The notes below the pieces were generated by a model that saw only the letters and a list, made by a program, of their open reading frames with translations, ran no database searches and was not told the DNA's origin. Source: a virus. Taken from it: a DNA stretch of 64,000 bases. Every line of letters begins with the position of its first letter. Within the stretch, counting starts at the first letter, position 1. The position numbers and the translations under genes are program-made. The DNA is taken from UHGV virus genome UHGV-1374526; one strand, written 5' to 3'. Positions 1-55,849 of this stretch are shown here, one piece after another.

Positions 1-56
1 ACGGGTTCAACGGGTTCAACGGGTTCAACGGGTTCAACGGGTTCAACGGGTTCAAG
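1..56. repeat. Tandem 10-bp repeat (ACGGGTTCAA) x ~5.6 at the window start
   Basis: Direct reading: acgggttcaa repeated head-to-tail from position 1. It may continue upstream of the window. Confidence 0.9.
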
Positions 57-102
57 ATAGTTAAGGATTCATAACTATTAAGGATTCTTAAACATTCCCC
101 TG

Positions 103-303
103 TAAGTCCGGTCTAACTTTTAAGTCCAGCCTAACATTGTAAGTGCCGTCTAACTTTATAAGTCCAGCCTAACTTATTAAGTGCCGTCTAACTTTTAAGT
201 CTGGACTAACTTTTAAGTCTGGACTAACTTATTAAGTCTGGACTAACTTTTAAGTCCAGCCTAACATTGTAAGTGCCGTCTAACTTTATAAGTCCAGCCT
301 AAC
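103..303. repeat. Iteron-like array of ~11 tandem 18-19-bp units TAAGT-N5-CTAAC plus a 3-4-nt linker
   Basis: Constant flanks TAAGT and CTAAC surround a variable 5-nt core (CCGGT, CCAGC, GCCGT, CTGGA) in an ordered pattern. The units carry no spacers, so this is not CRISPR. Confidence 0.85.
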
Positions 304-310
304 AATCTTT

Positions 311-345
311 GAAGATAGATAGTCCGATATTTGACTATCTGACGG
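311..345. repeat. Left copy of a ~33-bp direct repeat (AGATAGATAGTCYRATATTTGACTATYWG); the right copy is at 581-616
   Basis: Near-identical copies flank the 346-580 segment that holds the triple 42-bp repeat. Confidence 0.8.
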
Positions 346-446
346 CAAATCCGCAAGGACGGGCCGCACGCCGATTGCACCGCTACAGGTGCGCAAGATA
401 TAGGGGCATGACAATTTGACATACAAGATATAGAGGTTTTACATTT

Positions 447-572
447 TTGTAAAAAGAGATATAATTTTATATCAATATTGCTATAATGTCTCAAAAAGAG
501 ATATAATTTTATATCAATATTGCTATAATGTCTCAAAAAGAGATATAATTTTATATCAATATTGCTATAATG
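447..572 (+). promoter_or_regulatory. Three perfect tandem 42-bp repeats, each with an extended -10 promoter (TGcTATAAT) and a 7-bp inverted repeat GATATAA-TTT-TTATATC
   Basis: TATAAT sits at 482-487, 524-529 and 566-571, each preceded by TGc. An AT-rich segment lies upstream and there is no good -35. The embedded hairpin has a 7-bp stem and 3-nt loop. Confidence 0.6.
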
Positions 573-580
573 TCTCAAAA

Positions 581-616
581 AGAGATAGATAGTCTAATAT
601 TTGACTATTAGTGAGG
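581..616. repeat. Right copy of the ~33-bp direct repeat
   Basis: Matches 311-345 at ~30 of 33 positions. Confidence 0.8.
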
Positions 617-1512
617 GAAAGATACTTATACCCGTATGGGTATGCTTCATAGGTTGCTGATACTTAATCAGTCCCAGACTGGACAATTTGAGGGCAAGAC
701 CCTGCCCCTTTTCTGCCTTCTCCAGCACCTTCAATTTCATTCCCTATCGGATTAGTAGGATTACCATTTGCCGATTTTGCATTATATGTATTATGCGAAG
801 TATGGAAGCGGATTGCTTAGAGTATCAATGAGTTACGCATATCAGGGTGTCAATGGGAAACAGACTTTGCACCCTCGGATTCCTAGGAGACCAAGGCACA
901 CCGTTTCCCTACAAGTCCCACATGCTCAAACGGTTGCAACAGATTCCGAGGATTCAATGGGTTGCATGCCGTACCGTTCCCGTGACAGGGGCAGGGGCAG
1001 TTCAGGGTAGGCAATGCACCATTCCCGTTGCAACACGGTGGCATGTCTTACCGATTCCGGTGCATGTGGGGGAGAGGCAGGCCCCTGAAACATACCGATT
1101 CCGGTGCAATCAGGGGCAAAAAGGTTCCGTGATGCACCGATTCCGTGGGCATAGGGGGAAACTGGATGCCAAGAAATACCAAGTACCACCACGGTTTCCC
1201 GGGCTCCGGGGTTGCACGCGGCCCATAGTAAATAGTTGGGTCAAATTTTTTCCGTGGGGTACGGGGGAGGGAGTACCCTTCTGGGCATGTCAAGCAAAAT
1301 CGACATGCGGCGGGTACATGGGTGGGTACATGGTCATGGCCGCTTCGCGGGGTGCGTGGGTTCCGGAGGTTCAACATGATGGTCATGACCTCTGGTCTGT
1401 TTCAGCCTCGTCTGGTCTGTGACCCATTCCCTCTATGTCAAGCAAAATCGACACGCGGCCATTCCACGGGGGACGTATCGACCTAGAAGGCGGGTATACC
1501 CTTCGGGCGGGC

Positions 1513-1575
1513 AGTTATAGCGGACCAGCGGTTGTGGCGCGTTCTAGGGTAGGACCCTCGATTAAATTCGGGCAA
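1513..1575. repeat. Copy 1 of a ~62-bp GC-rich repeat (agtt.tagcggacc...gcgcgttctagggtaggaccctcgatt.aattc)
   Basis: Near-identical to 1990-2052. A second pair (tgtcaagcaaaatcgacaYgcggc) lies at ~1289-1322 and 1437-1470. Confidence 0.8.
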
Positions 1576-1989
1576 ATTTACAAGAGTGTGACGGGGTATA
1601 GGTAGCGAGATGGTACATTAGTCATGAAACAGGAGATAGGGCACTACCATCGACCAAATTTGCGCACGGCGGGCATAATGCGACGGAGCGGCTCTCGCGG
1701 ATTTGGCGGCAAAGAAAAAGCCCGCAGGTAGCTTGACGAGACTACCCACGGGCGTAACTATGGAAAATGCCTGTAGAAAGGAGAGTGTTTAGTCCGCTCC
1801 TGTGGCGAGCAAGTTCCTTGCTTGGGATAGCCAGAAGCATTGGGCTTAGCTGGTTCGGTTGCCGTTCGGAGCGAACAGGTGCAACATACCACATCAGGGG
1901 AGAAAGTCAAGAGGAAATTGGTGTGATGGCGCGTTTACGAATTTAATCCAGTGTGGCGGGGTAGAAGGAGGGGATGGGGTCCGGGTGGA

Positions 1990-2052
1990 TAGTTGTAGCG
2001 GACCGCCCCGTGCGGCGCGTTCTAGGGTAGGACCCTCGATTGAATTCAGGGG
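1990..2052. repeat. Copy 2 of the ~62-bp GC-rich repeat
   Basis: Matches 1513-1575 with few substitutions. Confidence 0.8.
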
Positions 2053-2112
2053 ATTTGGGGATGGGGCGTACACACATGTGGGCGCGTGCGCACAAGAGGA
2101 CACACAAAGGTC

Positions 2113-2140
2113 TTGACATTGGTGTGAGGTTTGGTATAGT
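2113..2140 (+). promoter_or_regulatory. Sigma70-type promoter TTGACA-N16-TATAGT
   Basis: TTGACA at 2113-2118 and TATAGT at 2135-2140, with a 16-nt spacer. Confidence 0.55.
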
Positions 2141-2146
2141 TGCCGC

Positions 2147-2214
2147 AGTGTTCCGACTGGTGCATTGTGGTATGGCCCCGGGGTAGACTTGTTCTGCCTC
2201 CGGGGTTTTCTTTT
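2147..2214 (+). ncRNA. Putative ~70-nt small RNA: promoter at 2113-2140, intrinsic terminator at 2176-2214
   Basis: A predicted TSS ~2147 is followed ~30 nt later by a GC stem (ccccgggg / cctccgggg) and the U-run ttttctttt. No ORF lies between the signals. Confidence 0.35.
2176..2214 (+). terminator. Rho-independent terminator-like hairpin plus T-run
   Basis: An ~8-bp GC stem (2176-2183 pairs with 2198-2205) is followed by ttttctttt. Confidence 0.45.
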
Positions 2215-2381
2215 GGAGAAAGGACAAGGCCTCTCGCCCTGTCAAATTCGACACATCTCGTTCCAGCTCAATACACAATGACGCGGAAGAGAGCCGAGTT
2301 AGGACAGGAAGGACAGGAAGGACAAGAGGAAAGTACTCGCGTAAGAGGTTTACCCTCATCAGGTTAGAACGATTTTGACCG

Positions 2382-2488
2382 GAAAGGACGAAGGACAAAC
2401 TCTCTGCCCCATATATATATATATATAAACCCCTATATAATATATAATATAATATATAATATTTTTTTACTTGTCCTTTGTCCTTTTC
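2382..2488. promoter_or_regulatory. Large inverted repeat of GGACAA half-sites (gaaaggacgaaggacaaa ... ttgtcctttgtcctttt) flanking a (TA)n / AT-rich tract at 2411-2468
   Basis: Direct reading. Further GGACAA/GGACAG copies sit at 2298-2330. It is candidate origin or operator architecture. Confidence 0.6.
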
Positions 2489-2622
2489 AAAAAAAGGAAC
2501 CTCACCCATGTTGAAAATCAATGAGTTATGAAAGGACAACCACCTTGTCCTCGGAACCCCCGGAACCCACGTACTCCAAGGTCTCCAAAAGCACCTAACA
2601 TGCACAGCATAAGCGGATTATG

Positions 2623-2657
2623 AAAAGGACAAACCGCCCTCATCCTCTTGTCCTTTT
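2623..2657. promoter_or_regulatory. Operator-like inverted repeat AAAAGGACAA-N15-TTGTCCTTTT, with a related site AAAGGACAA-N5-TTGTCCT at 2531-2551
   Basis: Perfect 10-bp arms, with the same half-site as the 2382-2488 region. Confidence 0.6.
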
Positions 2658-2684
2658 CTCCAAGGCACAGAGTATCAACGGATT

Positions 2685-2708
2685 CCACGGATTCCGTGGG
2701 TTCCGTGG
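2685..2708. promoter_or_regulatory. Perfect 15-bp palindrome CCACGGATTCCGTGG followed by GTTCCGTGG
   Basis: An intergenic instance of the dispersed CCACGGAWTCC motif, sitting upstream of the first gene's promoter. Confidence 0.6.
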
Positions 2709-2825
2709 CACGGAGCACGGAAATCTCCCGGACAACCATGTCCCGGTACTTGTCCGGGGGTCCAGCCAAAACCGCAAAGCTCTCCATTCTTTCTGGGGAC
2801 CTACAAGAAGCTTGCAAATTTTTAC

Positions 2826-2854
2826 TTGACAATCCTTCGCCCCTGTCCTACTGT
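2826..2854 (+). promoter_or_regulatory. Sigma70-type promoter TTGACA-N17-TACTGT
   Basis: -35 at 2826-2831 and -10 at 2849-2854. The first ATG (2866) is ~5 nt beyond the predicted TSS. Confidence 0.5.
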
Positions 2855-2865
2855 GTGCTCGGCCC

Positions 2866-3849
2866 ATGTGGCGGCCATTATTATCACAAACCAAAACGAA
2901 CATGCAAATAAATTATACCAATGACATGCAGAAGAGAGGGGCATTCCACCTCTTCCTCCTGAACGAAGTCCTCTACAACATGGGAGAAAGTTATGCCAGC
3001 CCGAAGGTACTTGCTCCCGTCTACTTGCAGGAACTGCTCATTCATGGATTGCTTACTCCCACAAAGAAACACCCCGCGAAGCGGAGGACGTTGGGAGAGG
3101 TCTCCTATCAGCACCGGGCACTCTTTGAGCGATTGAACAGGGTGAAAGATACGGGCTACCTCAATCCAATAGCGGAGGACATTCCCTTCCATCGAGACAC
3201 CTTGTACGGTCCCATGACCTCGATGGAACAATTCGAAACCACCGACACGGTGACGAAAATAACTCCCGAACTGCCCGAATCCCTTAACGTCCTCATCTCG
3301 CTTGTGCTTCTCAACGGCGCACCTGTAACCGAGGAATACATCACACAGCGGGCGAAAGGACCGGAGGGTAATCTGGACTTCGACTTCCGCTGGTTCAGTG
3401 CCATGTTCCTCACGTCCTGCCCCTATGGCCGTGAGCCTCGCTACTGTCTCTCCCAAGTGGGCATGGACTTTGGCTGGAAGGTATATGACTATGTTCTTGA
3501 CCACTATGAGCATGTGCCTAATGCCAGCTATTGGAGAACGAAGTTGCCAGCTACGGAATTGGGGTCTCCTTTCACTCTCAACCCCAACCCGGCTCCGGGG
3601 TTCCAATATAAACACAGCTTCATTATCCTTAGTCTCCTTGGTGACTTTATGGATGTCTCGCGCATAACGAAGTCCGACCTTGTTCGCATCCTTCAGCTCC
3701 CCGGCGGTGAGCGTAGCGTAGAGAATGCGCTCTCCGAGCTGACGTCCGAAGGTTTTGCCGAGTATGATGAAGAGACGCGTACCTATGCTCTCACCCACCT
3801 CGGCGCAGTCATGTATGGCCTATACGCTACCCGCATCATGGAAATCTAA
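2866..3849 (+). CDS. Hypothetical early protein; a C-terminal DNA-binding-like region is possible
   Basis: A 327-aa ORF sits directly downstream of the promoter. The overlapping antisense ORF 2884-3798 was rejected from context. The start could also be the internal Met at 2902. Confidence 0.45.
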   Translation: MWRPLLSQTKTNMQINYTNDMQKRGAFHLFLLNEVLYNMGESYASPKVLAPVYLQELLIHGLLTPTKKHPAKRRTLGEVSYQHRALFERLNRVKDTGYLNPIAEDIPFHRDTLYGPMTSMEQFETTDTVTKITPELPESLNVLISLVLLNGAPVTEEYITQRAKGPEGNLDFDFRWFSAMFLTSCPYGREPRYCLSQVGMDFGWKVYDYVLDHYEHVPNASYWRTKLPATELGSPFTLNPNPAPGFQYKHSFIILSLLGDFMDVSRITKSDLVRILQLPGGERSVENALSELTSEGFAEYDEETRTYALTHLGAVMYGLYATRIMEI

Positions 3850-3862
3850 TCTCTTACCTCGA

Positions 3863-6733
3863 ATGACCACAGCACTACTCAACGATGAAACAGTTCAGAA
3901 ACTTGAACTGACCTTTACCGCACCCCGCATCTCCCAGTTGCAACTGGCCGAAGGTATGAAGAAGCTCCCCACCGGGGGTAGTTGCAACCGCGCCGTCGCC
4001 ATTGCCCTGCCGGAGGTCCTTCGCCTTCTCATGGACATGCCGATTGAGAATCGGGAACTGATGCAGTATTACTATCAGGTACAACTCTTTAAGGTGATGC
4101 AGGGAAAGCTGGACGAGAACTCGCTCTCCATGCCTCCCGTATATAAGACCATCCTCTCCAACTGGCGCAAGCATGGGCTGGAAGCTAAGGATATTAAGCC
4201 CGCGCTTCCTGCCCTCGTTCCTTCTGTCCAGTTCCTAAGCAAGCCCGGATTGTATGACTACGCCCTCGACAGCAAGGGTGCAAGGTACTATACCAACCGT
4301 AGCCTCGTCAGCGTGGATGGCACGTCGTGGCGGCATACGGGTATCTTCGGAATTGACGTGGACCTCAAGGAGAACAAGAAACATACCGCGGAAACCCTTC
4401 TCGCTACAGCGCAGGAGAAACTCCCCCAGCTGGATGGCTTCCTCTTCGCGTATGTCAGCCCCAATCAGGGGATTAAGGCGTTCTTCCAAATCTCCAACTC
4501 TACGCTCCAATACCTGAACCAGAACCCGCAGGTGGTGGAGGATGAGGGAAATGAAGAACTGGACGTGAAGCGATTGGCAAATGAACGCATCTATCTCCAC
4601 AAAGCAGTATATCATTCCCTCGCGCAGTACATCCACGAGGGAACCGGATTTGTTCTCGACATGGCCTGTACTGACCCTGCGCGGATGCAGTTCTTCTATC
4701 TGGACACCTTCATCCCCGGAACCCCCGGAACCCCTCGATTCCATGTCCCCGACATGGAGAAGGCGAAAGCGGACTACCTTCAATACGACAAGAACCGGGC
4801 GGTCAGTTACGAACTCCCGTCCGTGGCTCCCGGTGCGCCTCGCCCCAAGATATTCGAGGACTTCATTGCGTGGTTGAAGGTGAACGAGTATTACGATACC
4901 GCCGAAGGCCTCTCCCGCATGGACTATATTAAGGGGGACGGTTGCCTCTATGGCGAGTGCCCACAGTGCAAGGGAGGCAAGTCGGGCAATAGTCAGAACA
5001 CGGACCTTCGCTTCTACCCCAATCCCCAGTACCCCCGGCAGTCCTACTTCCACTGCTTCCATGCCAGTTGCAATGGCGCGAACCCGGAGATTACGTCGGT
5101 GCAATGGCTCTTCGACATGTACTTGACGGAGTTGGAGGGGGAAGCCGAGAAGAAGGCAGGGGTTGAGCCGTGGTGTCAGGACCCTCTCCTGATGAAGTGC
5201 TTCATGCAGGGAATTGCTCCGGTAAATACGAACACCCCTCTCCCGGAGGTCAGCGCGTTGAAGCTCTGCTCTCTCAAGTTCCCCTATGTCCGAAAGAACA
5301 AGGCGGGCAAGAGCATCCCCATCCTGACGGACGAGAACATCAAGTATCTTCTCCATCATGGCCTAAATCTCCGTGCCTTCCGTCGAATGAACACGAACGA
5401 ACTCCTGCTCTTGGACTTTAAGAACAGTAGGTGGTACGAGACGAGCAATACTATATTGAGCAAGATTTCAAGCTTCTGGCAGTTGATAGTTCCCGGTCAG
5501 GCGATTCCTATTCAACGCCTTCGCGAAGCCTTGTCGAGTATTGCACAGGCCAATTACTACCACCCGCTGGCTACGTTCGTCAGCTCCCGTCCTTGGGATG
5601 GGCAGGACCGTTTGCGTGCGTTCTTGGACTACCTCCCCATGAATCAGGATGTAGACATGCCCGAAGGCTGGACCCCGGACAAGTATCGGGACATGGTGCT
5701 TACGACATGGCTCATCACCCTGTGGAAGCGCGTGACCCGCCGTCTCTGCTTCCTCACCCATGTGGAATCCCAGACCAGCTTCCCGCAGAACTACATCCCC
5801 ATGCTCACTGGTGCACAGGGGCTGGGTAAAACGAAAGCCACGGACTGGTTGTTCCGTGGGGTCCGTAATGACGTGGCTAGCTCCATCGAAGGATTGAATA
5901 GTGCGGATAGCGTTGTCCAGATGGCCCGGCACTCTGCCATCATCTTGGACGAGATTGATGAAGAAGTCGCTAACAAGGCGAAGGAGAGTAAGTTGAAGCG
6001 AATCATTACCGGGGAATCTGAAAGTTGCCGTGTTGCTTTCTCCCAGTCTCCGGGAACCTATGAGTACTGCGCAAGTATCATTGGGAGTACGAACCAAGAA
6101 GAGGTATTGAGAGATACCACAGGTACTCGCCGTTACTATCCGGTAATCCTAGGTCCACGTACCATGTCGGAGGAAGAAATCCCTGCCGGGTTTAGTGCCA
6201 ATAGCTGGGCGGTGGAGAAGCTCTTTAAGCTGGACAACCAGCAACTCTGGGCACAGATTAAATACATGGTAGACGCCCATGAAGATGGCGAATACCGTTG
6301 GGCTAATCTGGAAAAAGTCGGTGCATTCCTCGCAGAACAGTATGCCAGTTGCCGAGGCAATGATACTGACCTGACGAAGTACCTCGTCCCCGTGGCTCTC
6401 AAGGATATGGACACGAAGGGAGAGAGGCTCTCCAAGAAGATACCGGGCGACTTTGGCACTATGCACAATATCCTCGCCTATGTCCGTAAGAACTTCGGAG
6501 ACATGGAGAAGGTGGAGAACTGGGCAGACGCTAACTTCAAACGAGACCTCATTGCGGCCTACGGTTCCGATTCCTTGGTCCGCCACAATGTCAAACGCAC
6601 CGAGGACCCGAGGCAAATGAAACGCTACTTCTTCATGCCGATTGACATTTGGATGAAGGAAGCAAGCGCAGAAACGAAGGCGCGGGTATATTCGCAATAT
6701 GAACACATTAAGGCACTTGCGGAAACCCTGTAA
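3863..6733 (+). CDS. Primase-helicase fusion (AEP/PrimPol-type primase, zinc-binding region, SF3/D5-like helicase)
   Basis: N-terminal GIFGIDVDLK (AEP DxD motif) and Cys/His cluster CPQCKGG...HCFHASC. C-terminal Walker A LTGAQGLGKTKA and Walker B AIILDEIDE. The start was moved to the in-frame ATG at 3863 to avoid overlapping the upstream gene. Confidence 0.75.
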   Translation: MTTALLNDETVQKLELTFTAPRISQLQLAEGMKKLPTGGSCNRAVAIALPEVLRLLMDMPIENRELMQYYYQVQLFKVMQGKLDENSLSMPPVYKTILSNWRKHGLEAKDIKPALPALVPSVQFLSKPGLYDYALDSKGARYYTNRSLVSVDGTSWRHTGIFGIDVDLKENKKHTAETLLATAQEKLPQLDGFLFAYVSPNQGIKAFFQISNSTLQYLNQNPQVVEDEGNEELDVKRLANERIYLHKAVYHSLAQYIHEGTGFVLDMACTDPARMQFFYLDTFIPGTPGTPRFHVPDMEKAKADYLQYDKNRAVSYELPSVAPGAPRPKIFEDFIAWLKVNEYYDTAEGLSRMDYIKGDGCLYGECPQCKGGKSGNSQNTDLRFYPNPQYPRQSYFHCFHASCNGANPEITSVQWLFDMYLTELEGEAEKKAGVEPWCQDPLLMKCFMQGIAPVNTNTPLPEVSALKLCSLKFPYVRKNKAGKSIPILTDENIKYLLHHGLNLRAFRRMNTNELLLLDFKNSRWYETSNTILSKISSFWQLIVPGQAIPIQRLREALSSIAQANYYHPLATFVSSRPWDGQDRLRAFLDYLPMNQDVDMPEGWTPDKYRDMVLTTWLITLWKRVTRRLCFLTHVESQTSFPQNYIPMLTGAQGLGKTKATDWLFRGVRNDVASSIEGLNSADSVVQMARHSAIILDEIDEEVANKAKESKLKRIITGESESCRVAFSQSPGTYEYCASIIGSTNQEEVLRDTTGTRRYYPVILGPRTMSEEEIPAGFSANSWAVEKLFKLDNQQLWAQIKYMVDAHEDGEYRWANLEKVGAFLAEQYASCRGNDTDLTKYLVPVALKDMDTKGERLSKKIPGDFGTMHNILAYVRKNFGDMEKVENWADANFKRDLIAAYGSDSLVRHNVKRTEDPRQMKRYFFMPIDIWMKEASAETKARVYSQYEHIKALAETL

Positions 6734-7851: not shown

Positions 7852-8235
7852 ATGTACAACGAAATTGCAATCGCCGCCCAAACTGTTGATTCCCACTTCT
7901 CCTATATGGGATTAGAGGAATCAGCCGCTGACCTCCTGCGCCATCTTCTGTGGGAGATTGAAGAATACCGGGAAGCTGACGCGGAGGACCGCGTAAAGGA
8001 GGCAACCGACATCGCCATTCTCGCATTGCGCCTAGTAGCCGCTACGGGGCGCGATGAAGGTTTCTCCTTTGAGGATGGGATATTCCTCGCAAACGAAAAA
8101 TGCCGGGAAGTCGTGAACCGCATGAACCGTGCCGTGAAGATGTACAAGAAGGACAGAACCGCCGGAATTCCTATGAGCACCCCACAAGAATACTACGCGC
8201 AAGCGAAGGAACAACTAAATACACCCAAACACTAA
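7852..8235 (+). CDS. MazG-like nucleotide pyrophosphohydrolase
   Basis: An EExxE...E..D-type acidic helix pair (LLWEIEEYREADAEDRVKEATDIAILALRL) typical of the MazG/HisE fold. It is a common auxiliary gene in phage replication modules. Confidence 0.45.
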   Translation: MYNEIAIAAQTVDSHFSYMGLEESAADLLRHLLWEIEEYREADAEDRVKEATDIAILALRLVAATGRDEGFSFEDGIFLANEKCREVVNRMNRAVKMYKKDRTAGIPMSTPQEYYAQAKEQLNTPKH

Positions 8236-10154
8236 TGCACGAAGAAATAGACCACCCCCCTATATCATTTTCACTGCCTCGCATTCCGGGGTATGAAATG
8301 GAGATTACAGACGACCAGACCAAACTCACAGGCGATACTCTTGCCGTTGACTTTGAAACGTATTATGAGGGGAAATATTCCCTCAAGTTCATGGACCCGC
8401 ATTCCTACTGTCTGGACCCACGGTTCGACGCATACATCATGTCCGTCTATGACGGGAAGTATTGCTGGGTAGGACATCCGAAGGATTTTGACTGGGAGAA
8501 AACTACGAAGGACAAAACCCTCGTCGCGTTTAACGCCAGCTTCGACTATGCCGTTTACCTCTTCGCACTTCACGCACCGGGGGCCAAGGGCATCCCGTGC
8601 ACGCCAAGCTTCCAGCCGCCCTTCAAGGAGTGGCTCTGTTCCCGTGCCGCTTCCAACTATCTCGCCATCTATGGCTCTCTTGACAAGATTGTCGCAAAGC
8701 TTTGGGGTGTAGAGATTAGCAAGGAGGTCCGAGCCAAGGCCGAAGGCGTTGATTTCCGCAAGATGGAAGTCATCCCAGACGACATGAAGGAATACGTGGC
8801 GGGCGATAGTTACTACTGTCTCGCCTTGTGGGACAAGATGAAGAACTTCTGGCCGGAAGATGAACGGGAATGTTGGCTCAATACCTGCATCATGGGATGG
8901 CGCGGAGTTCCGACTTCCCGTCAGTATCTTCTTGACGGATTGGAGAAACTCCATCAGGCGCAGGAGGAATACAAGGAAGCTATCCCGCTTGAAAAGAAAC
9001 TCTCCATTCCCCAACTACGTAGAGCGTGCGAGGAACTGAACATCCCGCCGCCGGAGACGACGAGTAAGGCCAGCGAACTATTTACGGACTGGCTGGAAGA
9101 GTATGGCCACCTCGTCCCGTGGGTAACTCTTATCGGGAAGTACAGGAGCGTGAACCGCATGATTAGCATTACCGAGCGCATGCTTTCCCGCGTCTATACT
9201 GACCATGAAGGGATAGAACGTCTCCCCTATACGCTGACCTACTGTGGCGCAAGCACGGGTCGTTGGACTGCCGGGGGCGACAAGCTCAACCTGCAACAGC
9301 TTAACCGTGAAGACGTTCTGGGCTTTAACCAGCGCAACGCCATTCAAGCACCCGAAGGGTATAAGCTCGTGGTATGTGACTGGGCTGGGATTGAAGCACG
9401 TCTGACCGCTTGGCTCTGCGGGCAGGAGAAAATTCTTGATACCCTCCGTGCTGGTGAGAAGGACATCTATGCCGCTAACGCGAAAGGTTGGGGCCTCATC
9501 CCCGCGGATGTCAAGGACTTCAAACAGTACTGCAAGGAAACTCCGGGGCAAGCGGACCTTCGTCAGCATGTGAAGGCGGGGGTACTTGCTTGCGGCTTTA
9601 GTGCTGGATGGAAGGCTATTCAACGCTCGAACCCCGGAATGGACAGGGACCAGTGCCAAGCGATTGTGGACATGTACCGCAGTCGTAGCCCAGAAGTGGT
9701 AGCATGGTGGAGAGAGTTGGACGCATTAGCGGCTCGCGGCTATCGTACCCCCTCCCATAGCTTCGCGCTCTCCCTTCCCTCTGGCCGGAAGCTCTATTAT
9801 CGTAACTGTTACAAGAAACTCATTCAACCCAAGGACGGTCGTCGTCCCTATTTCGCAACCTGCGTCGATTTCGGGTACAAGTCCTCCATCGTCAATACTA
9901 ACCTCCTTAGCAACAATAACATCCAGTCAATCGCACGTGACCTCATGGTCCGCACGTTCAACCGCCTGTGCAAGGAATTAGAGGGTGCGCAACCTATCCT
10001 TCTCGTGCATGACGAAGCCGTAGTGATGGTTCCGGCTGACCATGCCGAGGAATACGCCCAGCGCATCGAACAGATAATGGAAGAAACTCCGCAGTGGGCT
10101 TCATCCCTTCCGCTCCTTGCCGAACCTGAAATCATGGACAAGTATCGCAAATGA
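8235..10154 (+). CDS. Family A DNA polymerase with 3'-5' exonuclease domain
   Basis: Exonuclease motifs LAVDFETY, FNASFDY and YVAGDSYY. Polymerase motif A VCDWAGIEARL, motif B KAGVLACGFSAG and motif C LLVHDEAVV. The start was placed at ATG 8235 to avoid overlapping the MazG-like gene. Confidence 0.8.
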   Translation: MHEEIDHPPISFSLPRIPGYEMEITDDQTKLTGDTLAVDFETYYEGKYSLKFMDPHSYCLDPRFDAYIMSVYDGKYCWVGHPKDFDWEKTTKDKTLVAFNASFDYAVYLFALHAPGAKGIPCTPSFQPPFKEWLCSRAASNYLAIYGSLDKIVAKLWGVEISKEVRAKAEGVDFRKMEVIPDDMKEYVAGDSYYCLALWDKMKNFWPEDERECWLNTCIMGWRGVPTSRQYLLDGLEKLHQAQEEYKEAIPLEKKLSIPQLRRACEELNIPPPETTSKASELFTDWLEEYGHLVPWVTLIGKYRSVNRMISITERMLSRVYTDHEGIERLPYTLTYCGASTGRWTAGGDKLNLQQLNREDVLGFNQRNAIQAPEGYKLVVCDWAGIEARLTAWLCGQEKILDTLRAGEKDIYAANAKGWGLIPADVKDFKQYCKETPGQADLRQHVKAGVLACGFSAGWKAIQRSNPGMDRDQCQAIVDMYRSRSPEVVAWWRELDALAARGYRTPSHSFALSLPSGRKLYYRNCYKKLIQPKDGRRPYFATCVDFGYKSSIVNTNLLSNNNIQSIARDLMVRTFNRLCKELEGAQPILLVHDEAVVMVPADHAEEYAQRIEQIMEETPQWASSLPLLAEPEIMDKYRK

Positions 10155-11506
10155 GTGCGCTTACTCCATTCCCGCCTCAAGAAGATTGCATCCACGATAT
10201 GGTGGATGCAATTACCCGGCACGGCTATGTGATAAATAAATCCTGCACGGGTACGGGGAAGACATTGGTTACTATCGAAACCGCGAAGGCTATGGGCAAG
10301 AGACTTCTCGTCGTCTGCCCTGCCATCGTAGTGACCCAATGGAAGCGAGCGATTGAACAGCAAGGAGCGGACGCGGTGGATGTCCTCTCATGGGAGAAGG
10401 TGCGCAGGGGGAGCACCCCCTATTACAAACGCCCCACAAAGATTCCCAAGTCCCGGATAGTCTTCGGGGCTTGGACCCTTCCCGACGATTCCTTGCTGGT
10501 CCTTGATGAAAGCCATAAGGCCAAAACCTATGGTAGCCAAAGCAACATCATGGCATTAACTGCGGCCCATCAAGGACTTCCGACGATTATGCTCTCTGCC
10601 ACTCCTTTTATGTCTCCCCTCGATATGAGTGTCCCCGCAACATATGCCAAGTGGATTCAAGACCCCCGGCGAGGGTTCTGGCTCTGGGCACGTATGCACG
10701 GATGCACCGACAGCTTCTGGGGAGGTATCGAGTTTAAGCTCAACCCACGTAACCACGCCATGATGGAGAACCTGAAACAAAAGCTCTTCACTGCTGGGGT
10801 TATGACAGAGATTGACAAGGATAGACTTGACACATTCTTCCCGGAGAATAGAATCGAATATCTGTCCGTGGACGTAGACATGAAAGGTATGAAAGAGATT
10901 AAACAATTACAGAAAGCACTTGACAAGCTGGACAAATCATGGGACCAGTCCATCGAACGGGCTAACGAGAAGGGAATCGAACTTCCTGCTATCGTTGAAC
11001 TCCTTCGGCTTCGCCAGCAATCTGAATTGGCTAAGCTCCCCACGATGGCAGAGAAGGCAGTTGAACTTCTGGACAGTGGATATAGCGTCGCCATCTTCGT
11101 GTCTTTCCTCGACAGTCTCTCCACACTCTCGGAACTCATTAACAATAAATCGGGGAGAACAGTTCCCTACTCCGAGATTAGTGGAGCGGTGACTGGGAAG
11201 AACCGACAGGAAGAGGTGGACAAGTTCCAACGGAATGAAGTTCCTCTCGCTCTCGTGCAGATTAGTGCAGGAGGAACTGGGGTGTCGCTTCACGATACCG
11301 AGGGAGGCCACCCCCGCGCCGCACTCATCTCGCCCGATTTTTCCCTTTCGTCACTCCTGCAAGCTCAAGGACGTATCGCCCGCCTCGGTGCAAAGTCACA
11401 CACCTTGCAGTACATTGTGACCGCCTCCGGTACGGTGGAGGAACGAATCATACAATCACTCAACACAAAAGAAATTTGCTTTAACGCATTAACATCAAAT
11501 GGCTAA
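10151..11506 (+). CDS. SF2 (SNF2/DEAD-like) DNA helicase
   Basis: Walker A SCTGTGKT and DEAH-like box LVLDESHKAK, plus a C-terminal helicase domain (QISAGGTGVSLHDT...QGRIARLG). Confidence 0.7.
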   Translation: MSALTPFPPQEDCIHDMVDAITRHGYVINKSCTGTGKTLVTIETAKAMGKRLLVVCPAIVVTQWKRAIEQQGADAVDVLSWEKVRRGSTPYYKRPTKIPKSRIVFGAWTLPDDSLLVLDESHKAKTYGSQSNIMALTAAHQGLPTIMLSATPFMSPLDMSVPATYAKWIQDPRRGFWLWARMHGCTDSFWGGIEFKLNPRNHAMMENLKQKLFTAGVMTEIDKDRLDTFFPENRIEYLSVDVDMKGMKEIKQLQKALDKLDKSWDQSIERANEKGIELPAIVELLRLRQQSELAKLPTMAEKAVELLDSGYSVAIFVSFLDSLSTLSELINNKSGRTVPYSEISGAVTGKNRQEEVDKFQRNEVPLALVQISAGGTGVSLHDTEGGHPRAALISPDFSLSSLLQAQGRIARLGAKSHTLQYIVTASGTVEERIIQSLNTKEICFNALTSNG

Positions 11507-13701: not shown

Positions 13702-13730
13702 TTGACCTTCTGGACTTTGTGGGATATATT
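13702..13730 (+). promoter_or_regulatory. Sigma70-type promoter TTGACC-N17-TATATT ending 5 nt before the ATG (leaderless)
   Basis: -35 at 13702-13707 and -10 at 13725-13730, with the ATG at 13736. Confidence 0.45.
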
Positions 13731-13735
13731 CTCCT

Positions 13736-14251
13736 ATGCAACTAGTAGGAGTTGACCCCGGAACCCACGGAGCCCTTGTACTCGCGGACACCCGGAGCAA
13801 GAAAATCTGGATAAAGCACATGCCAGAAGACGAAAGGGAACTGGAAATCATATTGAACAAACTGCCACGTAGCCGTCATCGTATCATGTACATTGAGAAG
13901 ATGAGCTATGCCATGAGCGGAGGCGGCAAGGTGTCCAATCCGAGAAGTAGTGGCGTATTGGGAGAGGCAACCGGGAAGGTCCTCGGTTACGCCGCGGCGG
14001 CGGGGTACACCGTCACAAAGGTTTCCCCAATCGTATGGATGCGGGCTATGGGCGCGTATGATACGGGCCTGACTGCCCGGGACCGCACGAAGTGGAAGAA
14101 CAACCTGAAACGCATCGCGATGGAGAACTTCCCCGGCGCGAAGGTGACATTGCAGAACGCGGACGCTCTTCTCATTCTATTGTACGCGTACCGGGAACTG
14201 AACGACGACCACACACTGACCCTCGACAACTGGGATATAGAAAGAATCTGA
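13736..14251 (+). CDS. RuvC-like Holliday junction resolvase
   Basis: N-terminal MQLVGVDPGTHGALVL matches the RuvC ...G(I/V)DPG motif. Later acidic residues are present. The size (171 aa) fits. Confidence 0.6.
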   Translation: MQLVGVDPGTHGALVLADTRSKKIWIKHMPEDERELEIILNKLPRSRHRIMYIEKMSYAMSGGGKVSNPRSSGVLGEATGKVLGYAAAAGYTVTKVSPIVWMRAMGAYDTGLTARDRTKWKNNLKRIAMENFPGAKVTLQNADALLILLYAYRELNDDHTLTLDNWDIERI

Positions 14252-14252: not shown

Positions 14253-16091
14253 ATGGCACGACACTTTACCCGCTACGGACGACAATGGGAGTACGGAGTA
14301 TCAGAGCTTGACATCGAACTCTGGTGCTTCAAATACGCATGGCCCGAAGAGAAGGGAGGGCTGGGCAGGTATGGACACGCTAAGAACGCCATCAATCTCC
14401 TGTGGAATTACAAGGGCAGTCCTACTCCCATTATCTGGACGCCGTGGATTGAACGGATGATTGAAACCGCGTGCAAATATGATGTGGTCATCATGGGTGG
14501 AGGCTCGTCCTCTGGGAAGTCATTATCTATGGCTATCATGGCGACGCTCTTCTATCTGGCCGACCCCGTCGATACCCTTTGCCTAGTCACATCGACTACT
14601 ATTGAAGGTGCGAAGAAACGTATCTTCAAGGATATTAAACGGTTGTGGCGCAAGGAATTTCCGGGCAAGCTCGTTGATGGCAAGGGACAGATTAAAGGCG
14701 TGAACGAGGACGGAGATATTGACGATTCCCGCGGCATCTCCATTATCCCCTGCGCGAACGTCGGCGACCCCAGTAGCCGATTTATCGGTATTAAGGCAAA
14801 GAACATGCACGTCTTTTACGACGAGCTTTCCGAATTGCCGATTGAACTCGTCGAGGTGTGGCGTACCAACCTCATCACCAACAGAGCGGACACGCCTCCT
14901 ACCCTGATGGCCGCCTCTAACCCCAAGAGCCGCACCGATGCCTTTGGTGTTATGGCTATGCCCAAGGATGGGTGGAACAGCGTTGACATCTTTGAGGAAT
15001 ACGAGTGGGAGACCAAGGACGGGATTTACATCCGCTTCGACAACACCCAGAACCCCCGCATCAAATATGGCCGCGAGGATTGGAGCTTCTACACCCCGTT
15101 GGACATCGTTCAGCAAACGATTGAACAATATGGGGAGAATAGTCCGTTCGTGATGCGGTTCCACCGGGCAACCTTTTCAGACGATACGGAAGAAGGTTCA
15201 CTAATGTCGGAGGCTGAAATTTACGGCAGTGGCGCGGATGCCATGCCCGTCTGGGGAGACGGCGAGTTGATTACCATCGCAGGATTGGACCCTGCCTACA
15301 CCAACGGCGGGGACCAGTCATGTTTGAAGCTCGCCAAAGTCGGACGAACGGTTGAAGGGCTTTGGGCGTGCGCGGTGTTCCGTACCTATTTGTTGAAGTC
15401 TACGTCCGACAAGGAACGGATGAAGCAAAGGAACTTCGACATCGCCCAGCAAGTTGGAGAGATTCTCCGGGCCAACGGGGTTGAAAGTAAGTACCTTGCC
15501 GTAGACGTAACCGGAGGTACTGGTTTCATCGACATCCTCGCCCAGCATGTCGGCACGGACTTCCAGACGGTCAGCTTCGCGGGTATGGCGAGCAAAGTGC
15601 CCATTGGCCTGTTGCAGAATCAGGAGGCATGCCAGCAATATAGCAACAAGGTCTCCGAGCTTTGGGGATGTATGAAACTGGCAATCAATGCTCGCCAACT
15701 TTATGGCCTCGACCCGACAACTATCGTCGAGCTTAAATCCCGGCTCTACACCATGAACGGAACCCGAATTGCCGTGGAACCCAAGGCGGCCATGAAGAAA
15801 CGGATTCATAAATCCCCGGACAACGCGGACGCACTAGCACTTCTCGTCCACGTGTGCCGGGGAATCATGGGACCGGAGTTCGGTAAGATTAGGCTTGACA
15901 TTCAGAACCATAAGGTGGTAGAACATCAAGAGGTAATCAAATATCGCGAAGACGGAACCGCATATATTGAAGCCGCAGACATTGGCAGGTATCTCGGAGG
16001 CTTCGTCGGAGGCAATGCCCCCGCTCCCGCTCCTGCCCGCGACACCTTTGCCTCCGACGTAACCGCCGCAATGAACATGCTATGGACCTAA
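14253..16091 (+). CDS. Terminase large subunit
   Basis: Walker A VVIMGGGSSSGKSLS followed by an ATPase and nuclease-domain-sized ORF (612 aa). It sits at the head of the morphogenesis block. Confidence 0.75.
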   Translation: MARHFTRYGRQWEYGVSELDIELWCFKYAWPEEKGGLGRYGHAKNAINLLWNYKGSPTPIIWTPWIERMIETACKYDVVIMGGGSSSGKSLSMAIMATLFYLADPVDTLCLVTSTTIEGAKKRIFKDIKRLWRKEFPGKLVDGKGQIKGVNEDGDIDDSRGISIIPCANVGDPSSRFIGIKAKNMHVFYDELSELPIELVEVWRTNLITNRADTPPTLMAASNPKSRTDAFGVMAMPKDGWNSVDIFEEYEWETKDGIYIRFDNTQNPRIKYGREDWSFYTPLDIVQQTIEQYGENSPFVMRFHRATFSDDTEEGSLMSEAEIYGSGADAMPVWGDGELITIAGLDPAYTNGGDQSCLKLAKVGRTVEGLWACAVFRTYLLKSTSDKERMKQRNFDIAQQVGEILRANGVESKYLAVDVTGGTGFIDILAQHVGTDFQTVSFAGMASKVPIGLLQNQEACQQYSNKVSELWGCMKLAINARQLYGLDPTTIVELKSRLYTMNGTRIAVEPKAAMKKRIHKSPDNADALALLVHVCRGIMGPEFGKIRLDIQNHKVVEHQEVIKYREDGTAYIEAADIGRYLGGFVGGNAPAPAPARDTFASDVTAAMNMLWT

Positions 16092-16743: not shown

Positions 16744-16771
16744 TTGACAACGTCGTCCATTCGCGTATAGT
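16744..16771 (+). promoter_or_regulatory. Sigma70-type promoter TTGACA-N16-TATAGT ending 6 nt before the ATG (leaderless)
   Basis: -10 at 16766-16771 and the ATG at 16778. Confidence 0.5.
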
Positions 16772-16777
16772 GGGGCC

Positions 16778-17542
16778 ATGCCGAAACCCGAATCAATTCA
16801 AGAAGTCTTCCGTCGTTGGACCCCGGTAGCTCTCATGAACTTGCCGGAGGAAGTGAAGACCCCAGAAACGTTCCCCGATTATATGGGGACGGATGATGAA
16901 CCGTTGCCTGTTGGTCATAGTCAGGGAATTCTAACGGTCATTGGGTACTCCCACGATGTCCGATATCCGTATGTCGCGCAATGTGCATGTGGGAATGTGG
17001 TCACGATGAACCGTCTGCAATTAACGCGCAAGCAACACCATTGTGGATGCCTGACCCAAATCATGCGCTCATCCTATCTTATCCGCTTGCGGGTAGAAGC
17101 TATGCGTTCATGGTGGCAACAGGTTCCTCTGTGGCTCGATGACCTTGACAAGCTTCGCGAACACGCGAAGAAGTACAAGAAGGCCGTCAAGAGAACGAAC
17201 AAGTACAATGCCAAGCTCTCCCATGTCGAGTACGCGGACGACCCGCTGACGTTTGACAGGGAGGTAGAGACCTCCGGTAGCCCTGACGGGGTGGACGCTT
17301 TCCTTTCCCTCATCGCACCGTCGGAGGAATATAGTCAGTTCCTACGCAGTATTGCCGAGAAGCTGACCAAGGAATATAAACCTTGGCCCGCAATCCCGAT
17401 GGCGAATACAAGCGCGTATGCCAGTTACAAGAACGAACTGCCCGAATTTGACGCGGCTACCTTCATTAACTTCGTCAACTACCTTGCAGACGCACAAGAG
17501 GATAAAAACCTGAAACCTACGTCCGACAATGGCGATAAGTGA
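16778..17542 (+). CDS. Hypothetical protein
   Basis: A 254-aa ORF in the gene train. Confidence 0.4.
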   Translation: MPKPESIQEVFRRWTPVALMNLPEEVKTPETFPDYMGTDDEPLPVGHSQGILTVIGYSHDVRYPYVAQCACGNVVTMNRLQLTRKQHHCGCLTQIMRSSYLIRLRVEAMRSWWQQVPLWLDDLDKLREHAKKYKKAVKRTNKYNAKLSHVEYADDPLTFDREVETSGSPDGVDAFLSLIAPSEEYSQFLRSIAEKLTKEYKPWPAIPMANTSAYASYKNELPEFDAATFINFVNYLADAQEDKNLKPTSDNGDK

Positions 17543-28253: not shown

Positions 28254-28281
28254 TCTTGACAAATAATAAAATTATTATATG
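28254..28281 (+). promoter_or_regulatory. Sigma70-type promoter region (TTGACA at 28256-28261; AT-rich -10 around 28276-28281)
   Basis: The -10 assignment is ambiguous (spacer 14-16). The ATG at 28290 is within ~9 nt, so the transcript is probably leaderless. Confidence 0.4.
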
Positions 28282-28289
28282 GTGGTGGC

Positions 28290-35041: not shown

Positions 35042-35103
35042 TATAGCAGTACAACTGGCTTATCGATTTCGTACATCGAAATGTCAGGACGTTAAACTCC
35101 CAC

Positions 35104-55814: not shown

Positions 55815-55843
55815 TTGACCTTCGGGGGCATGGGAGATATAAT
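55815..55843 (+). promoter_or_regulatory. Consensus sigma70 promoter TTGACC-N17-TATAAT whose -10 is flanked by a perfect 12-bp inverted repeat GGGCATGGGAGA / TCTCCCATGCCC (55826-55855); leaderless ATG at 55850
   Basis: Direct reading. The start codon lies inside the right arm. Confidence 0.55.
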
Positions 55844-55849
55844 TCTCCC

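What the first reader, a model, noticed from the sequence alone, without database searches (positions are those of the whole stretch)
447..572. Three perfect tandem 42-bp promoter-bearing repeats, each containing a 7-bp stem / 3-nt loop hairpin
Each unit carries an extended -10 (TGcTATAAT) without a good -35, and also the perfect inverted repeat GATATAA-TTT-TTATATC just upstream. A triple strong early promoter at a genome end recalls T7 A1-A3. A small hairpin upstream of the start site recalls N4-type hairpin promoters used by a virion-injected RNAP, and a giant virion protein exists at 46103-55798. Either reading makes this the likely entry point of early transcription.
Basis: partly seen in the sequence, partly recalled or inferred. 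Interest (0 to 1): 0.6.

Follow-up and report, generated by a model that had tools for sequence, protein, structure and literature searches.

The report
Copy-variable promoter-like repeat in gut phage
A perfect 42-base tandem repeat carrying textbook bacterial promoter signals is real, but relatives of this uncultured gut phage carry it in zero, one or three copies, so it is an optional, slippage-amplified promoter-like cassette and not a conserved early-transcription entry point.

Summary
The repeat is real: a 42-bp unit, 3.26 copies, 100% identical, at window 451-587. Each unit holds TGCTATAAT and a second TATAAT. The palindrome is GATATAA-TT-TTATATC (7+2+7), not 7+3+7. It is all A/T apart from one end pair, and its DNA hairpin is worth only -1.9 kcal/mol.

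About 17 related ~70-kb phage genomes have both flanks at roughly 80-90% identity. At least 11 lack the unit, two have one copy, and two (this window and L018) have three. The site is not at a demonstrable genome end. It sits inside a ~3-kb repeat-rich non-coding region between divergent gene blocks.

The phage's own promoters are sigma70-like: TTGACA-N16/17-TAtaaT, often leaderless. The first unit, together with a conserved TTTACA, forms such a promoter (11 of 12 matches, spacer 16). So the cassette is most likely an accessory rightward host-RNAP promoter amplified by slippage (about 0.4).

The rivals are a neutral minisatellite (about 0.3) and a protein-binding box array (about 0.2). The N4-type hairpin-promoter reading fails every test I could run. 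The giant ORF shows no RNA polymerase signature.

This is ordinary in kind and of modest interest.

The parts
451..587 (+). The array: 42-bp unit AAAAAGAGATATAATTTTATATCAATATTGCTATAATGTCTC at 451-492, 493-534 and 535-576, plus an 11-nt partial copy at 577-587. 19% G+C.
458..473 (.). 16-bp palindrome GATATAA-TT-TTATATC, copy 1. Copies 2 and 3 are at 500-515 and 542-557. It occurs nowhere else in the window.
   Evidence: fold (-1.9 kcal/mol)
467..486 (.). Second, overlapping near-palindrome TTATATCAAT|ATTGCTATAA (9 of 10 arm positions pair), copy 1. Copies 2 and 3 are at 509-528 and 551-570. It amounts to back-to-back TGaTATAAA (minus strand) and TGcTATAAT (plus strand).
479..487 (+). Extended -10 TGCTATAAT, copy 1. 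Copies 2 and 3 are at 521-529 and 563-571. Predicted starts are near 494, 536 and 578.
438..465 (+). Canonical -35/-10 promoter-like site TTTACA-16-TATAAT (11 of 12 matches). The -35 lies in the conserved flank and the -10 is supplied by the first unit. Predicted start is near 472.
   Evidence: The GAGATATAATT stretch is identical to the -10 region of the promoter-like site at 55815.
478..507 (+). TTGCTA-18-TATAAT (10 of 12 matches), formed across the junction of units 1 and 2. A second copy at 520-549 spans units 2 and 3.
437..454 (.). Conserved flank inverted repeat TTTTAC-ATTTTT-GTAAAA. Relatives have TTTACAAAAATGTAAA. The cassette is inserted immediately to its right.
583..608 (.). Right-flank element AGATAGATAGTCTAATATTTGACTAT, itself an inverted repeat ATAGTC-N8-GACTAT. 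It is a direct repeat of 313-338. Recombination between the two copies has deleted the whole intervening segment in relative L008.
   Evidence: (D8)
312..589 (+). Seven same-strand RAGATAKA boxes at 312, 395, 425, 456, 498, 540 and 582. Three of them are supplied by the array. These are 7 of the 14 occurrences in the 64-kb window.

Best explanation
The 42-bp unit is an accessory sigma70-type promoter cassette in the large non-coding control region of an uncultured ~70-kb human-gut phage.

In its single-copy form, [AAAAAGAGATA]-31 nt-[AAAAAGAGATA], it drops a perfect TATAAT 16 nt downstream of a conserved TTTACA. It also adds a second, extended -10 (TGcTATAAT) 21 bp further on. This creates rightward host-RNAP promoters where relatives have none.

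The 11-nt direct repeat that brackets the unit then allows replication slippage or unequal recombination. In two lineages this has expanded the cassette to three or more identical copies, multiplying the -10 elements at 21-bp spacing.

The 16-bp palindrome covers -14 to +2 of the first promoter and about -36 to -21 of the second. That is where an operator for a dimeric regulator would sit.

Shown: the repeat, its motifs, its 0/1/3-copy polymorphism, the bracket repeat, and the phage's use of sigma70-like promoters.

Inferred: that RNAP actually fires here, the direction, the slippage mechanism, and any operator role.
For: 1. The phage uses sigma70-type promoters. There are 22 sites with at least 10 of 12 matches against 9.5 in shuffles. 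Nineteen lie on the plus strand, where genes are plus-strand, and most are intergenic. Several have an ATG 5-7 nt after the -10, i.e. leaderless. The consensus is A-rich UP..ttC TTGACA N16-17 ..gaTAtaaT.
2. Site 438-465 (TTTACA-16-TATAAT) scores 11 of 12 and has the phage's preferred 16-nt spacer and its 'ga' before the -10. Its GAGATATAATT is identical to the -10 region of the promoter-like site at 55815, which directly precedes a leaderless ORF.
3. TGnTATAAT is rare: 6 in 64 kb against 1.4 expected, and 3 of them are here. By my reading of the sites listed, TGn precedes the -10 in about a third of the phage's own promoter-like sites.
4. Both TATAAT hexamers and the palindrome are kept in all four carrier genomes (one arm base differs in L018 copy 1), although the L018 unit differs at 3 of 42 positions.
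5. Zero-copy relatives have no -10 at the matching distance from TTTACA, so the insertion creates the promoter.
6. The single-copy forms (L025, L026) show the 11-nt bracketing repeat that slippage needs.
Against: - There are no transcript data, and the host is unknown.
- The cassette is absent from most relatives, so whatever it drives is dispensable.
- In L018 the TG of the extended -10 is lost (CGCTATAAT), the -35-like TTGCTA becomes TCGCTA, and the TTTACA spacer is 15 nt.
- Three substitutions missing the 22 'important' positions is not significant: (20/42)^3 = 0.11, my arithmetic.
- Nothing recognisable lies downstream. There is no ORF, no Rfam or tRNA hit, only a weak 5-bp terminator-like hairpin at 692-707, and no convincing conserved RNA fold.
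- A 42-bp spacing is too tight for three RNAPs to sit independently (an RNAP footprint is about 75 bp, established knowledge).
- A/T-rich sequence yields TATA-like hexamers on both strands easily. The minus strand also reads TGaTATAAA.
Confidence: 0.4

Rival explanations
1. It is a neutral or nearly neutral minisatellite. An A/T-rich ~50-nt indel bracketed by an 11-nt direct repeat expands and contracts by slippage, and its promoter-like hexamers and palindromes are by-products of TATA-rich composition with no role.
For: - The 0/1/3-copy polymorphism occurs among genomes whose flanks are roughly 80-90% identical.
- The copies are perfectly identical, which points to recent expansion.
- The surrounding region is a hypervariable mosaic of repeat modules that are shuffled or deleted between relatives (L008, L030, L032).
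- There is no statistically significant constraint on the motifs (3 substitutions, p about 0.11).
- No downstream product could be identified.
Against: - The unit has persisted long enough to accumulate 3 fixed differences. It sits on at least two upstream flank haplotypes (L026 versus window/L018/L025), yet keeps both TATAAT hexamers in every copy, the palindrome in all but L018 copy 1, and (except in L018) the exact 16-nt spacing to TTTACA.
- Two lineages independently hold the same 3.26 copies.
- An 11-of-12 match in the phage's own promoter format is unlikely to be inert if host RNAP reads such sites.
Confidence: 0.3
2. It is a protein-binding array. The units add paired half-sites (G[A/C]TATAA) and RAGATAKA boxes to an existing row of boxes, spaced at 42 bp, which is 4 helical turns. 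A phage or host DNA-binding protein (regulator/operator, replication accessory factor or small terminase) binds cooperatively on one face of the helix. This is compatible with the promoter reading if the protein is a repressor.
For: - Seven RAGATAKA boxes, all on the plus strand, lie within 312-589. These are 7 of the 14 in the window, and only 1 of 100 shuffles reaches 14.
- The two upstream boxes CAAGATATAGGGG are conserved in most relatives.
- The 16-bp palindrome is unique to the array.
- Spacing is 42 bp, and 30-31 bp for the upstream boxes, close to whole helical turns (my arithmetic).
- The palindrome overlaps the predicted -10/+1 of one promoter and the -35 region of the next.
Against: - No DNA-binding protein (HTH, repressor, integrase, ParB or recognisable small terminase) was found among about 45 ORFs scanned.
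- No gene is evidently specific to the carrier genomes.
- A much better origin-like structure lies 1.7 kb away: 8 AAGGACAA boxes in both orientations around an (AT)n run at 2220-2655.
- The array is dispensable in most relatives.
Confidence: 0.2
3. It is an N4-type hairpin promoter read by a virion-injected RNA polymerase (the giant ORF at 46103-55798). The palindrome would extrude as a hairpin on the template strand.
For: There are three copies and a small inverted repeat upstream of a possible start. The template-strand centre is purine (AA). A 3231-aa ORF exists.
Against: - N4 promoters need a GC-rich heptamer centred at -11, a 3-nt loop, a G:C loop-closing pair and -11R/-10G/-8G/+1C (PMC4496689). 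Here the palindrome is all A/T apart from one end pair, has a 2-nt centre, and is worth -1.9 kcal/mol.
- The giant ORF has no Pfam, PHROG or PDB sequence hit.
- It has no T7-like motifs B, C or T/DxxGR.
- None of its three DxDxD strings is conserved in its only three full-length homologues.
- The element is absent from most relatives that keep the giant-ORF phage backbone.
Confidence: 0.02

Closest known systems
Extended -10 (TGnTATAAT) sigma70 promoters (established knowledge, e.g. galP1-type)
   Same: There is an exact TGnTATAAT with an A/T-rich upstream region and no usable -35 at 17 nt. Such promoters can work without a -35.
   Different: Here the motif is one of two -10 elements per unit, and the TG is lost in relative L018. 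No start site has been mapped.
Phage T7 A1-A2-A3 early promoter cluster (established knowledge)
   Same: Three host-RNAP promoter-like sites lie in the same orientation in a non-coding stretch.
   Different: The T7 promoters are non-identical, more than 100 bp apart, and each has a -35. They sit at the entering end of a linear genome just upstream of early genes, and are conserved. This array is made of identical 42-bp copies, is internal in related contigs, has no gene for 2.3 kb, and is missing from most relatives.
N4 virion-RNAP hairpin promoters (PMC4496689)
   Same: There are three copies of a short inverted repeat near a putative start, in a phage with a giant ORF.
   Different: The stem composition, loop length, conserved bases, polymerase homology and conservation among relatives all fail (see the membership test).
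Tripartite operators of temperate phages (lambda OR1-3 type; established knowledge)
   Same: Three 16-17-bp pseudo-palindromes overlap promoter elements.
   Different: The copies are identical and spaced 42 bp apart, against about 23-24 bp in lambda. No repressor or integrase was found, and the number of sites varies (0, 1 or 3) between close relatives.
Minisatellites / VNTRs in promoter regions, as at bacterial contingency loci (established knowledge)
   Same: The copies are perfect and head-to-tail. Copy number is polymorphic among close relatives. A short bracketing direct repeat is present in the single-copy state.
   Different: The unit is long (42 bp) and carries complete promoter elements rather than altering spacer length. 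It is found in a phage, and the phenotype is unknown.
Iteron-type replication origins (established knowledge)
   Same: Direct repeats sit at whole-turn spacing in an A/T-rich non-coding region near replication genes.
   Different: The array is dispensable in most relatives. A separate box-plus-(AT)n structure at 2220-2655 fits an origin better.

Membership tests
Sigma70 -35/-10 promoter of this phage's own type | TTGACA-like hexamer, a 16-17-nt spacer and a TAnnnT hexamer, co-oriented with downstream transcription | tested here: met
   Site 438-465 is TTTACA-16-TATAAT, 11 of 12 matches. It fits the consensus built from 17 phage sites, including 'ga' before the -10. The inner units score 10 of 12 with an 18-nt spacer.
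Sigma70 -35/-10 promoter of this phage's own type | A/T-rich UP-like tract ending in ttC just upstream of the -35 | tested here: not met
   The sequence upstream of TTTACA is ...caagatatagaggt, not the AaAAa.ttC seen in the phage's own sites.
Sigma70 -35/-10 promoter of this phage's own type | A transcript 5' end 6-8 nt downstream of the -10 | not testable with these tools
   No RNA data are available. The predicted starts are near 472, 494, 514, 536, 556 and 578.
Extended -10 promoter | TG at -15/-14 directly upstream of a near-consensus -10 | tested here: met
   TGCTATAAT occurs three times in the window and is also present in L025 and L026. It is NOT kept in L018, which has CGCTATAAT.
N4-type virion-RNAP hairpin promoter | 5-7-bp stem and 3-nt loop, with a GC-rich heptamer centred at -11 and a G:C loop-closing pair | tested here: not met
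   The arms are 7 nt around a 2-nt centre. The fold is a 6-bp stem with a 4-nt loop, all A/T pairs apart from one outer G:C, at -1.9 kcal/mol. The definition is from PMC4496689.
N4-type virion-RNAP hairpin promoter | A virion RNAP homologue (T7-like single-subunit fold) encoded by the phage | tested here: not met
   The giant ORF has no Pfam, PHROG or PDB sequence hit and no motif B, C or T/DxxGR. Remote structural homology was not tested, because no useful alignment depth was available.
N4-type virion-RNAP hairpin promoter | Conserved among related phages as the obligatory early promoters | tested here: not met
   The element is absent in at least 11 of about 17 related genomes.
crAss-type two-barrel virion RNAP (as a premise for injected-RNAP promoters) | A conserved DFDxD metal-binding motif in the giant virion protein (bioRxiv 10.1101/2020.03.07.982082) | tested here: not met
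   The three DxDxD strings (positions 1278, 1820, 2931) are not conserved in any of the three full-length homologues.
T7-like early promoter cluster at the genome end | Located at the entering physical end and directly upstream of early genes | tested here: not met
   Contigs L015 and L017 run from window 60.5-64 kb, through about 6.4 kb of small minus-strand genes, into this region. The site is internal in L018, L025 and L026. The next plus-strand gene is at 2866, and 590-2150 shows no codon periodicity. The true physical ends were not determinable.
Minisatellite / VNTR generated by slippage | Perfect head-to-tail copies, copy-number polymorphism among close relatives, and a short direct repeat bracketing the unit in the single-copy allele | tested here: met
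   The copies are 100% identical. Alleles with 0, 1.3 and 3.3 copies exist. The 11-nt AAAAAGAGATA lies on both sides of the unit in L025 and L026.
Iteron-type origin | Repeats essential and conserved with the replicon, and adjacent to a DNA-unwinding element | tested here: not met
   The array is dispensable. An alternative box cluster around (AT)n lies at 2220-2655. Binding of an initiator is not testable here.

The most novel reading that the evidence does not exclude
The cassette could be a phage 'contingency locus'. Slippage would switch it between 0, 1 and 3 or more copies, giving the phage population a heritable rheostat for host-RNAP entry into the conserved non-coding region. That region could yield an early long non-coding RNA or a transcript that activates the nearby origin-like structure. 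The palindrome would serve as the operator of an unidentified regulator.
Probability: 0.1. Interest if true: 0.5.

Novelty: new member of a known kind. Interest (0 to 1): 0.25.

Why it matters
If the cassette fires, it would be a clean natural example of promoter gain and dosage change by indel plus slippage, within a recombining population of an uncultured and almost unannotatable human-gut phage lineage. It would also mark where host RNAP enters a ~3-kb conserved non-coding region whose function is unknown.

If it does not fire, it is simply a minisatellite. Either way it is not the conserved early-transcription entry point, and it gives no evidence for an injected RNA polymerase in this phage.

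Tried and rejected
- **N4-type hairpin promoter:** rejected on stem, loop and sequence rules, hairpin stability, lack of conservation, and lack of any RNAP signature in the giant ORF.
- **Genome-end early cluster like T7:** rejected, because the site is internal in other assemblies and no gene lies downstream.
- **Origin iterons or unwinding element:** considered unlikely. The array is dispensable and a better candidate lies at 2220-2655. I first thought the 327-aa ORF (2866-3849) and those boxes swap as one initiator/iteron module. contradicts this: L008 has the window-like ORF but different boxes. I dropped the idea.
- **Protein-coding or known RNA downstream:** no tRNA, no Rfam hit at E<=1 and no codon periodicity. 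The 39-aa ORF at 636-755 is broken by frameshifting indels in relatives (my reading). RNAalifold of 581-745 gave only weak covariation, and the 692-707 hairpin is a weak terminator.
- **A carrier-specific gene that might encode a cognate binding protein:** none was evident. Pfam found nothing in the left-hand small genes of L018.
- **Host identification:** no close phage in GenBank. The genome-contig scan with the primase found nothing, and the exact-protein look-up found nothing.
- **Source of the unit elsewhere in the genome:** only an 11-nt identity to the -10 region of the promoter at 55815.
- **Assembly artefact:** the unit is real, because it appears in independent assemblies (ENA OURU01000392 and OOBT01000054.1). 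A perfectly periodic 137-nt array is, however, what a de Bruijn assembler with k between 96 and 137 would print for any longer array of the same phase (my inference). 'Three' may therefore be a lower bound for this window.

Full report
**1. What is in the sequence**

Window 451-587 holds 3.26 head-to-tail copies of the 42-bp unit AAAAAGAGATATAATTTTATATCAATATTGCTATAATGTCTC. Identity is 100% and there are no indels (TRF score 274; the repeat finder family D3; read directly). The unit is 19% G+C in a genome of about 52% G+C.

- TGCTATAAT occurs at 479, 521 and 563. There are 4 in the window against 0.24 expected by chance.
- TGNTATAAT occurs 6 times against 1.4 expected.
- The inverted repeat is 16 nt, GATATAA-TT-TTATATC.
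- As single-stranded DNA it folds into a 6-bp stem with a 4-nt loop, all A/T pairs apart from one G:C at the outer end. MFE is -1.9 kcal/mol. The whole unit folds no better than shuffled sequence (z = -0.25 and -0.41 for the two strands).

- Each unit has a second TATAAT inside the palindrome (460, 502, 544). The first lies 16 nt after TTTACA (438-443), giving an 11-of-12 sigma70 match. The inner two lie 18 nt after TTGCTA, giving 10 of 12.
- A second, overlapping near-palindrome TTATATCAAT|ATTGCTATAA places TGaTATAAA on the minus strand back-to-back with TGcTATAAT on the plus strand.

**2. Where it sits**

The window is most of an uncultured phage genome of about 70 kb.

Recognisable genes:
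- VapE-type primase/helicase at 3755-6733.
- PolA at 8100-10154.
- A helicase at 10151-11506.
- An exonuclease.
- The large terminase at 14253-16091.
- An endolysin.
- A PHROG thymidylate-synthase family hit at 58080-58907 and an NAD-dependent ligase, both on the minus strand.

Almost everything else has no Pfam or PHROG match. GenBank phages are very distant: no DNA match, no TerL match, and PolA at about 26% identity.

Genes run on the plus strand from 2866 to about 56.4 kb and on the minus strand from about 57 kb to the window end.

Window 1-2865 has no convincing ORF. Across 590-2150, substitutions among up to 12 relatives are spread evenly over the three codon phases. In the primase gene they concentrate in one phase, for example 22 of 34.

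The region is built of repeat modules:
- ACGGGTTCA x6 at 1-55.
- TAAGTnnnnnCTAAC x11 at 103-303.
- Two copies of an inverted-repeat element at 313-338 and 583-608.
- Two CAAGATATAGGGG boxes.
- The inverted repeat TTTTAC...GTAAAA.
- The array itself.

It is not a demonstrable genome end. In contigs L015 and L017, window 60.5-64 kb is followed by about 6.4 kb of small minus-strand genes and then by this very region. In L018, L025 and L026 the site is internal. Many IMG/VR contigs break either in the 19-bp repeat array or in the (AT)n run near 2400. That pattern looks like assembly breakage at repeats (inference).

**3. Relatives**

The primase protein and two flank patterns retrieved related contigs from IMG/VR. 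A unit-derived pattern retrieved L025 and L026 from metagenomes.

- **Zero copies.** Both flanks of the array align at roughly 80-90% identity, but in L003, L004 and L007 window positions 454 and 590 are adjacent. The whole array is missing and 'CCAT' stands in its place.
- **Census over about 17 distinct genomes**:
  - 3.3 copies: the window and L018.
  - 1.3 copies: L025 (ENA OURU01000392, human gut metagenome) and L026 (OOBT01000054.1).
  - 0 copies: L003, L004, L007, L012, L014, L015, L017, L020, L028, L031.
  - Deleted or rearranged: L008 has lost the whole segment between the two inverted-repeat copies, and L030 and L032 have the modules in another order.
- **Unit variants.** The L025 unit is identical to the window's. 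L026 differs by G38A. The L018 unit differs at three positions (T29C, G38A, T41G) in all three copies, and its first copy has two further changes.
- **What the changes hit.** T29C destroys the TG of the extended -10 and weakens the -35-like TTGCTA. Both TATAAT hexamers are intact in every carrier, and the palindrome is intact apart from one arm base in L018 copy 1. With only three substitutions this is not significant: (20/42)^3 = 0.11, my arithmetic.
- **Bracketing repeat.** In single-copy alleles the unit is bracketed by the 11-nt direct repeat AAAAAGAGATA. This is the substrate that slippage or unequal exchange needs.
- **Haplotypes.** The unit occurs on two different upstream flank haplotypes, L026 versus window/L018/L025. 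It is therefore an old presence/absence polymorphism in a recombining population.
- **Caveat on copy number.** The window's perfectly periodic 137 nt is exactly what a de Bruijn assembler with k between 96 and 137 would output for any longer array in the same phase (inference). Three copies may be a lower bound here. In L018 the variant first copy shortens the perfectly periodic stretch, so its count is probably real.

**4. Does the phage use such promoters?**

Yes.
- TTGAC[AC]-N16-18-TAnnnT sites lie in intergenic gaps in front of genes. In several the ATG follows the -10 by 5-7 nt, which implies leaderless mRNAs.
- Shine-Dalgarno sequences are absent.
- Sites with at least 10 of 12 matches number 22 against 9.5 in block shuffles, and 19 lie on the plus strand, where the genes are plus-strand.
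- The 17-site consensus is A-rich UP..ttC TTGACA N16-17 ..gaTAtaaT.

Site 438-465 fits this format: 16-nt spacer, 'ga' before the -10, and a perfect TATAAT. It lacks the A-rich/ttC tract upstream. Its GAGATATAATT is identical to the -10 region of the promoter-like site at 55815, which directly precedes a leaderless ORF. Zero-copy relatives have no -10 at that distance from TTTACA. The cassette therefore creates a promoter-like site rather than decorating one.

The host is unknown. A Bacteroidota host is not excluded by the E. coli-like consensus. The crAss-like phage phi14:2 of Cellulophaga has -35/-10-like middle promoters that E. coli sigma70 RNAP reads. It also has long intergenic regions that are heavily transcribed early (bioRxiv 10.1101/2020.03.07.982082).

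**5. What would be transcribed?**

This is unknown.
- Rightward starts (predicted near 472-578) lead into the second inverted-repeat element, then an invariant ATACCC-N4-GGGTAT palindrome, then a highly conserved stretch with only a weak 5-bp terminator-like hairpin at 692-707.
- Beyond that lies the conserved non-coding block.
- There are no tRNA and no Rfam hits.
- Canonical promoters sit right in front of the first genes on both sides: TTGACA-17-TACTGT before 2866 and TTGACG-16-TGnTAAATT before the first leftward gene in L018.

The conserved entry points of early transcription are more likely those promoters.

**6. The injected-RNAP idea**

N4 early promoters are defined by a GC-rich heptamer centred at -11 between inverted repeats, a 3-nt loop, a G:C closing pair, and recognition of -11R, -10G, -8G and +1C (PMC4496689). 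None of these is present here.

The giant ORF (3231 aa):
- It has no Pfam, PHROG or PDB sequence match.
- It has no T7-like RNAP motifs.
- It has one close fragment among 5.8 billion proteins.
- It has seven hits, three of them full-length (26-46% identity), among 1.84 billion representatives.
- Its three DxDxD strings are not conserved in any of those three homologues. About 0.7 such strings are expected by chance (my estimate).

No RNAP, sigma factor, repressor or integrase was found elsewhere. I could not test remote structural similarity.

**7. Verdict**

The cassette is most likely an accessory, slippage-amplified sigma70-type promoter cassette (about 0.4). The palindrome is possibly an operator.

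The rivals are a functionless minisatellite (about 0.3) and a protein-binding box array (about 0.2). Seven same-strand RAGATAKA boxes lie at 312-589, with 42-bp spacing equal to four helical turns. The N4-type reading is about 0.02.

The box-array and promoter readings are not exclusive. The element is a new instance of known kinds of things, and interest is modest.

Noticed in passing
window 590-2150 (most conserved 1430-1910): A ~1.5-kb block is conserved among up to 12 related genomes but shows no codon periodicity of substitutions. Stretch 1550-1909 has only 16-18 variable positions per 240 nt. This is functional non-coding DNA or RNA of unknown role in a phage.
   Followed up: partly
window 1712-1910, minus strand: Candidate small-RNA gene. 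Promoter TTGACT-16-TGgTATGTT lies at 1910..1883, the start is near 1876, and a 13-bp GC-rich terminator at 1753..1720 is followed by a U run. The fold has z = -2.9. It lies in the most conserved stretch.
   Followed up: partly
window 2113-2215, plus strand: Candidate ~65-nt small RNA. Promoter TTGACA-16-TGgTATAGT (11 of 12 matches) is followed by two hairpins, the second with UUUUCUUUU after it. The fold has z = -3.7.
   Followed up: partly
window 2220-2655: Origin-like structure. Eight of the window's 13 AAGGACAA boxes lie here, in both orientations, around an (AT)n run at 2407-2462. The box sequence is polymorphic among relatives: AAGGACAA, TGAGACAA or AAGGACCG. It does not co-vary with the adjacent 327-aa ORF.
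   Followed up: partly
window 1-303; L018 4590-5060; L015 9300-9490: Arrays of 9-bp (ACGGGTTCA x6) and 19-bp (TAAGTnnnnnCTAAC x11) repeats. In relatives the repeat modules of the whole non-coding region vary in number, are reordered (L030, L032) or are deleted (L008). L018 shows further 27-bp repeats and a second (AT)n run to the left of the window start.
   Followed up: partly
window, e.g. 13702-13738, 16744-16780, 28256-28292, 55815-55852: The phage's promoters have the form TTGACA/C-N16-17-TAtaaT with the ATG 5-7 nt after the -10, which implies leaderless mRNAs. Other genes have A-rich, Shine-Dalgarno-free leaders. This is a possible clue to the unknown host.
   Followed up: partly
window 46103-55798: The 3231-aa Ala-rich ORF has no Pfam, PHROG or PDB hit. 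It has only three full-length homologues (3211-3381 aa, 26-46% identity) among 1.84 billion representative proteins. It has no conserved DxDxD and no T7-like RNAP motif.
   Followed up: partly
window 1484-1572 and 1962-2050: An 89-nt segment is duplicated at 79% identity within the non-coding block (D4). Neither strand folds better than shuffles. The differences are not adenine-specific by my reading of the sequences, so it is not a DGR template/variable pair.
   Followed up: partly
window 37754-38431: A 229-bp tandem repeat, 3.0 copies at 71% matches. It was not examined.
   Followed up: no
window 950-1160, 2678-2704, 4714-4734, 21612-21630, 30588-30616, 35099-35123, 49978-50042: Short tandem 9-mers and related repeats built on GGAATCC/CGGnTTCC-like cores recur in both non-coding and coding DNA. 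Three imperfect ACCGATTCCGGTGCA repeats about 43 nt apart lie at 1050-1160.
   Followed up: no
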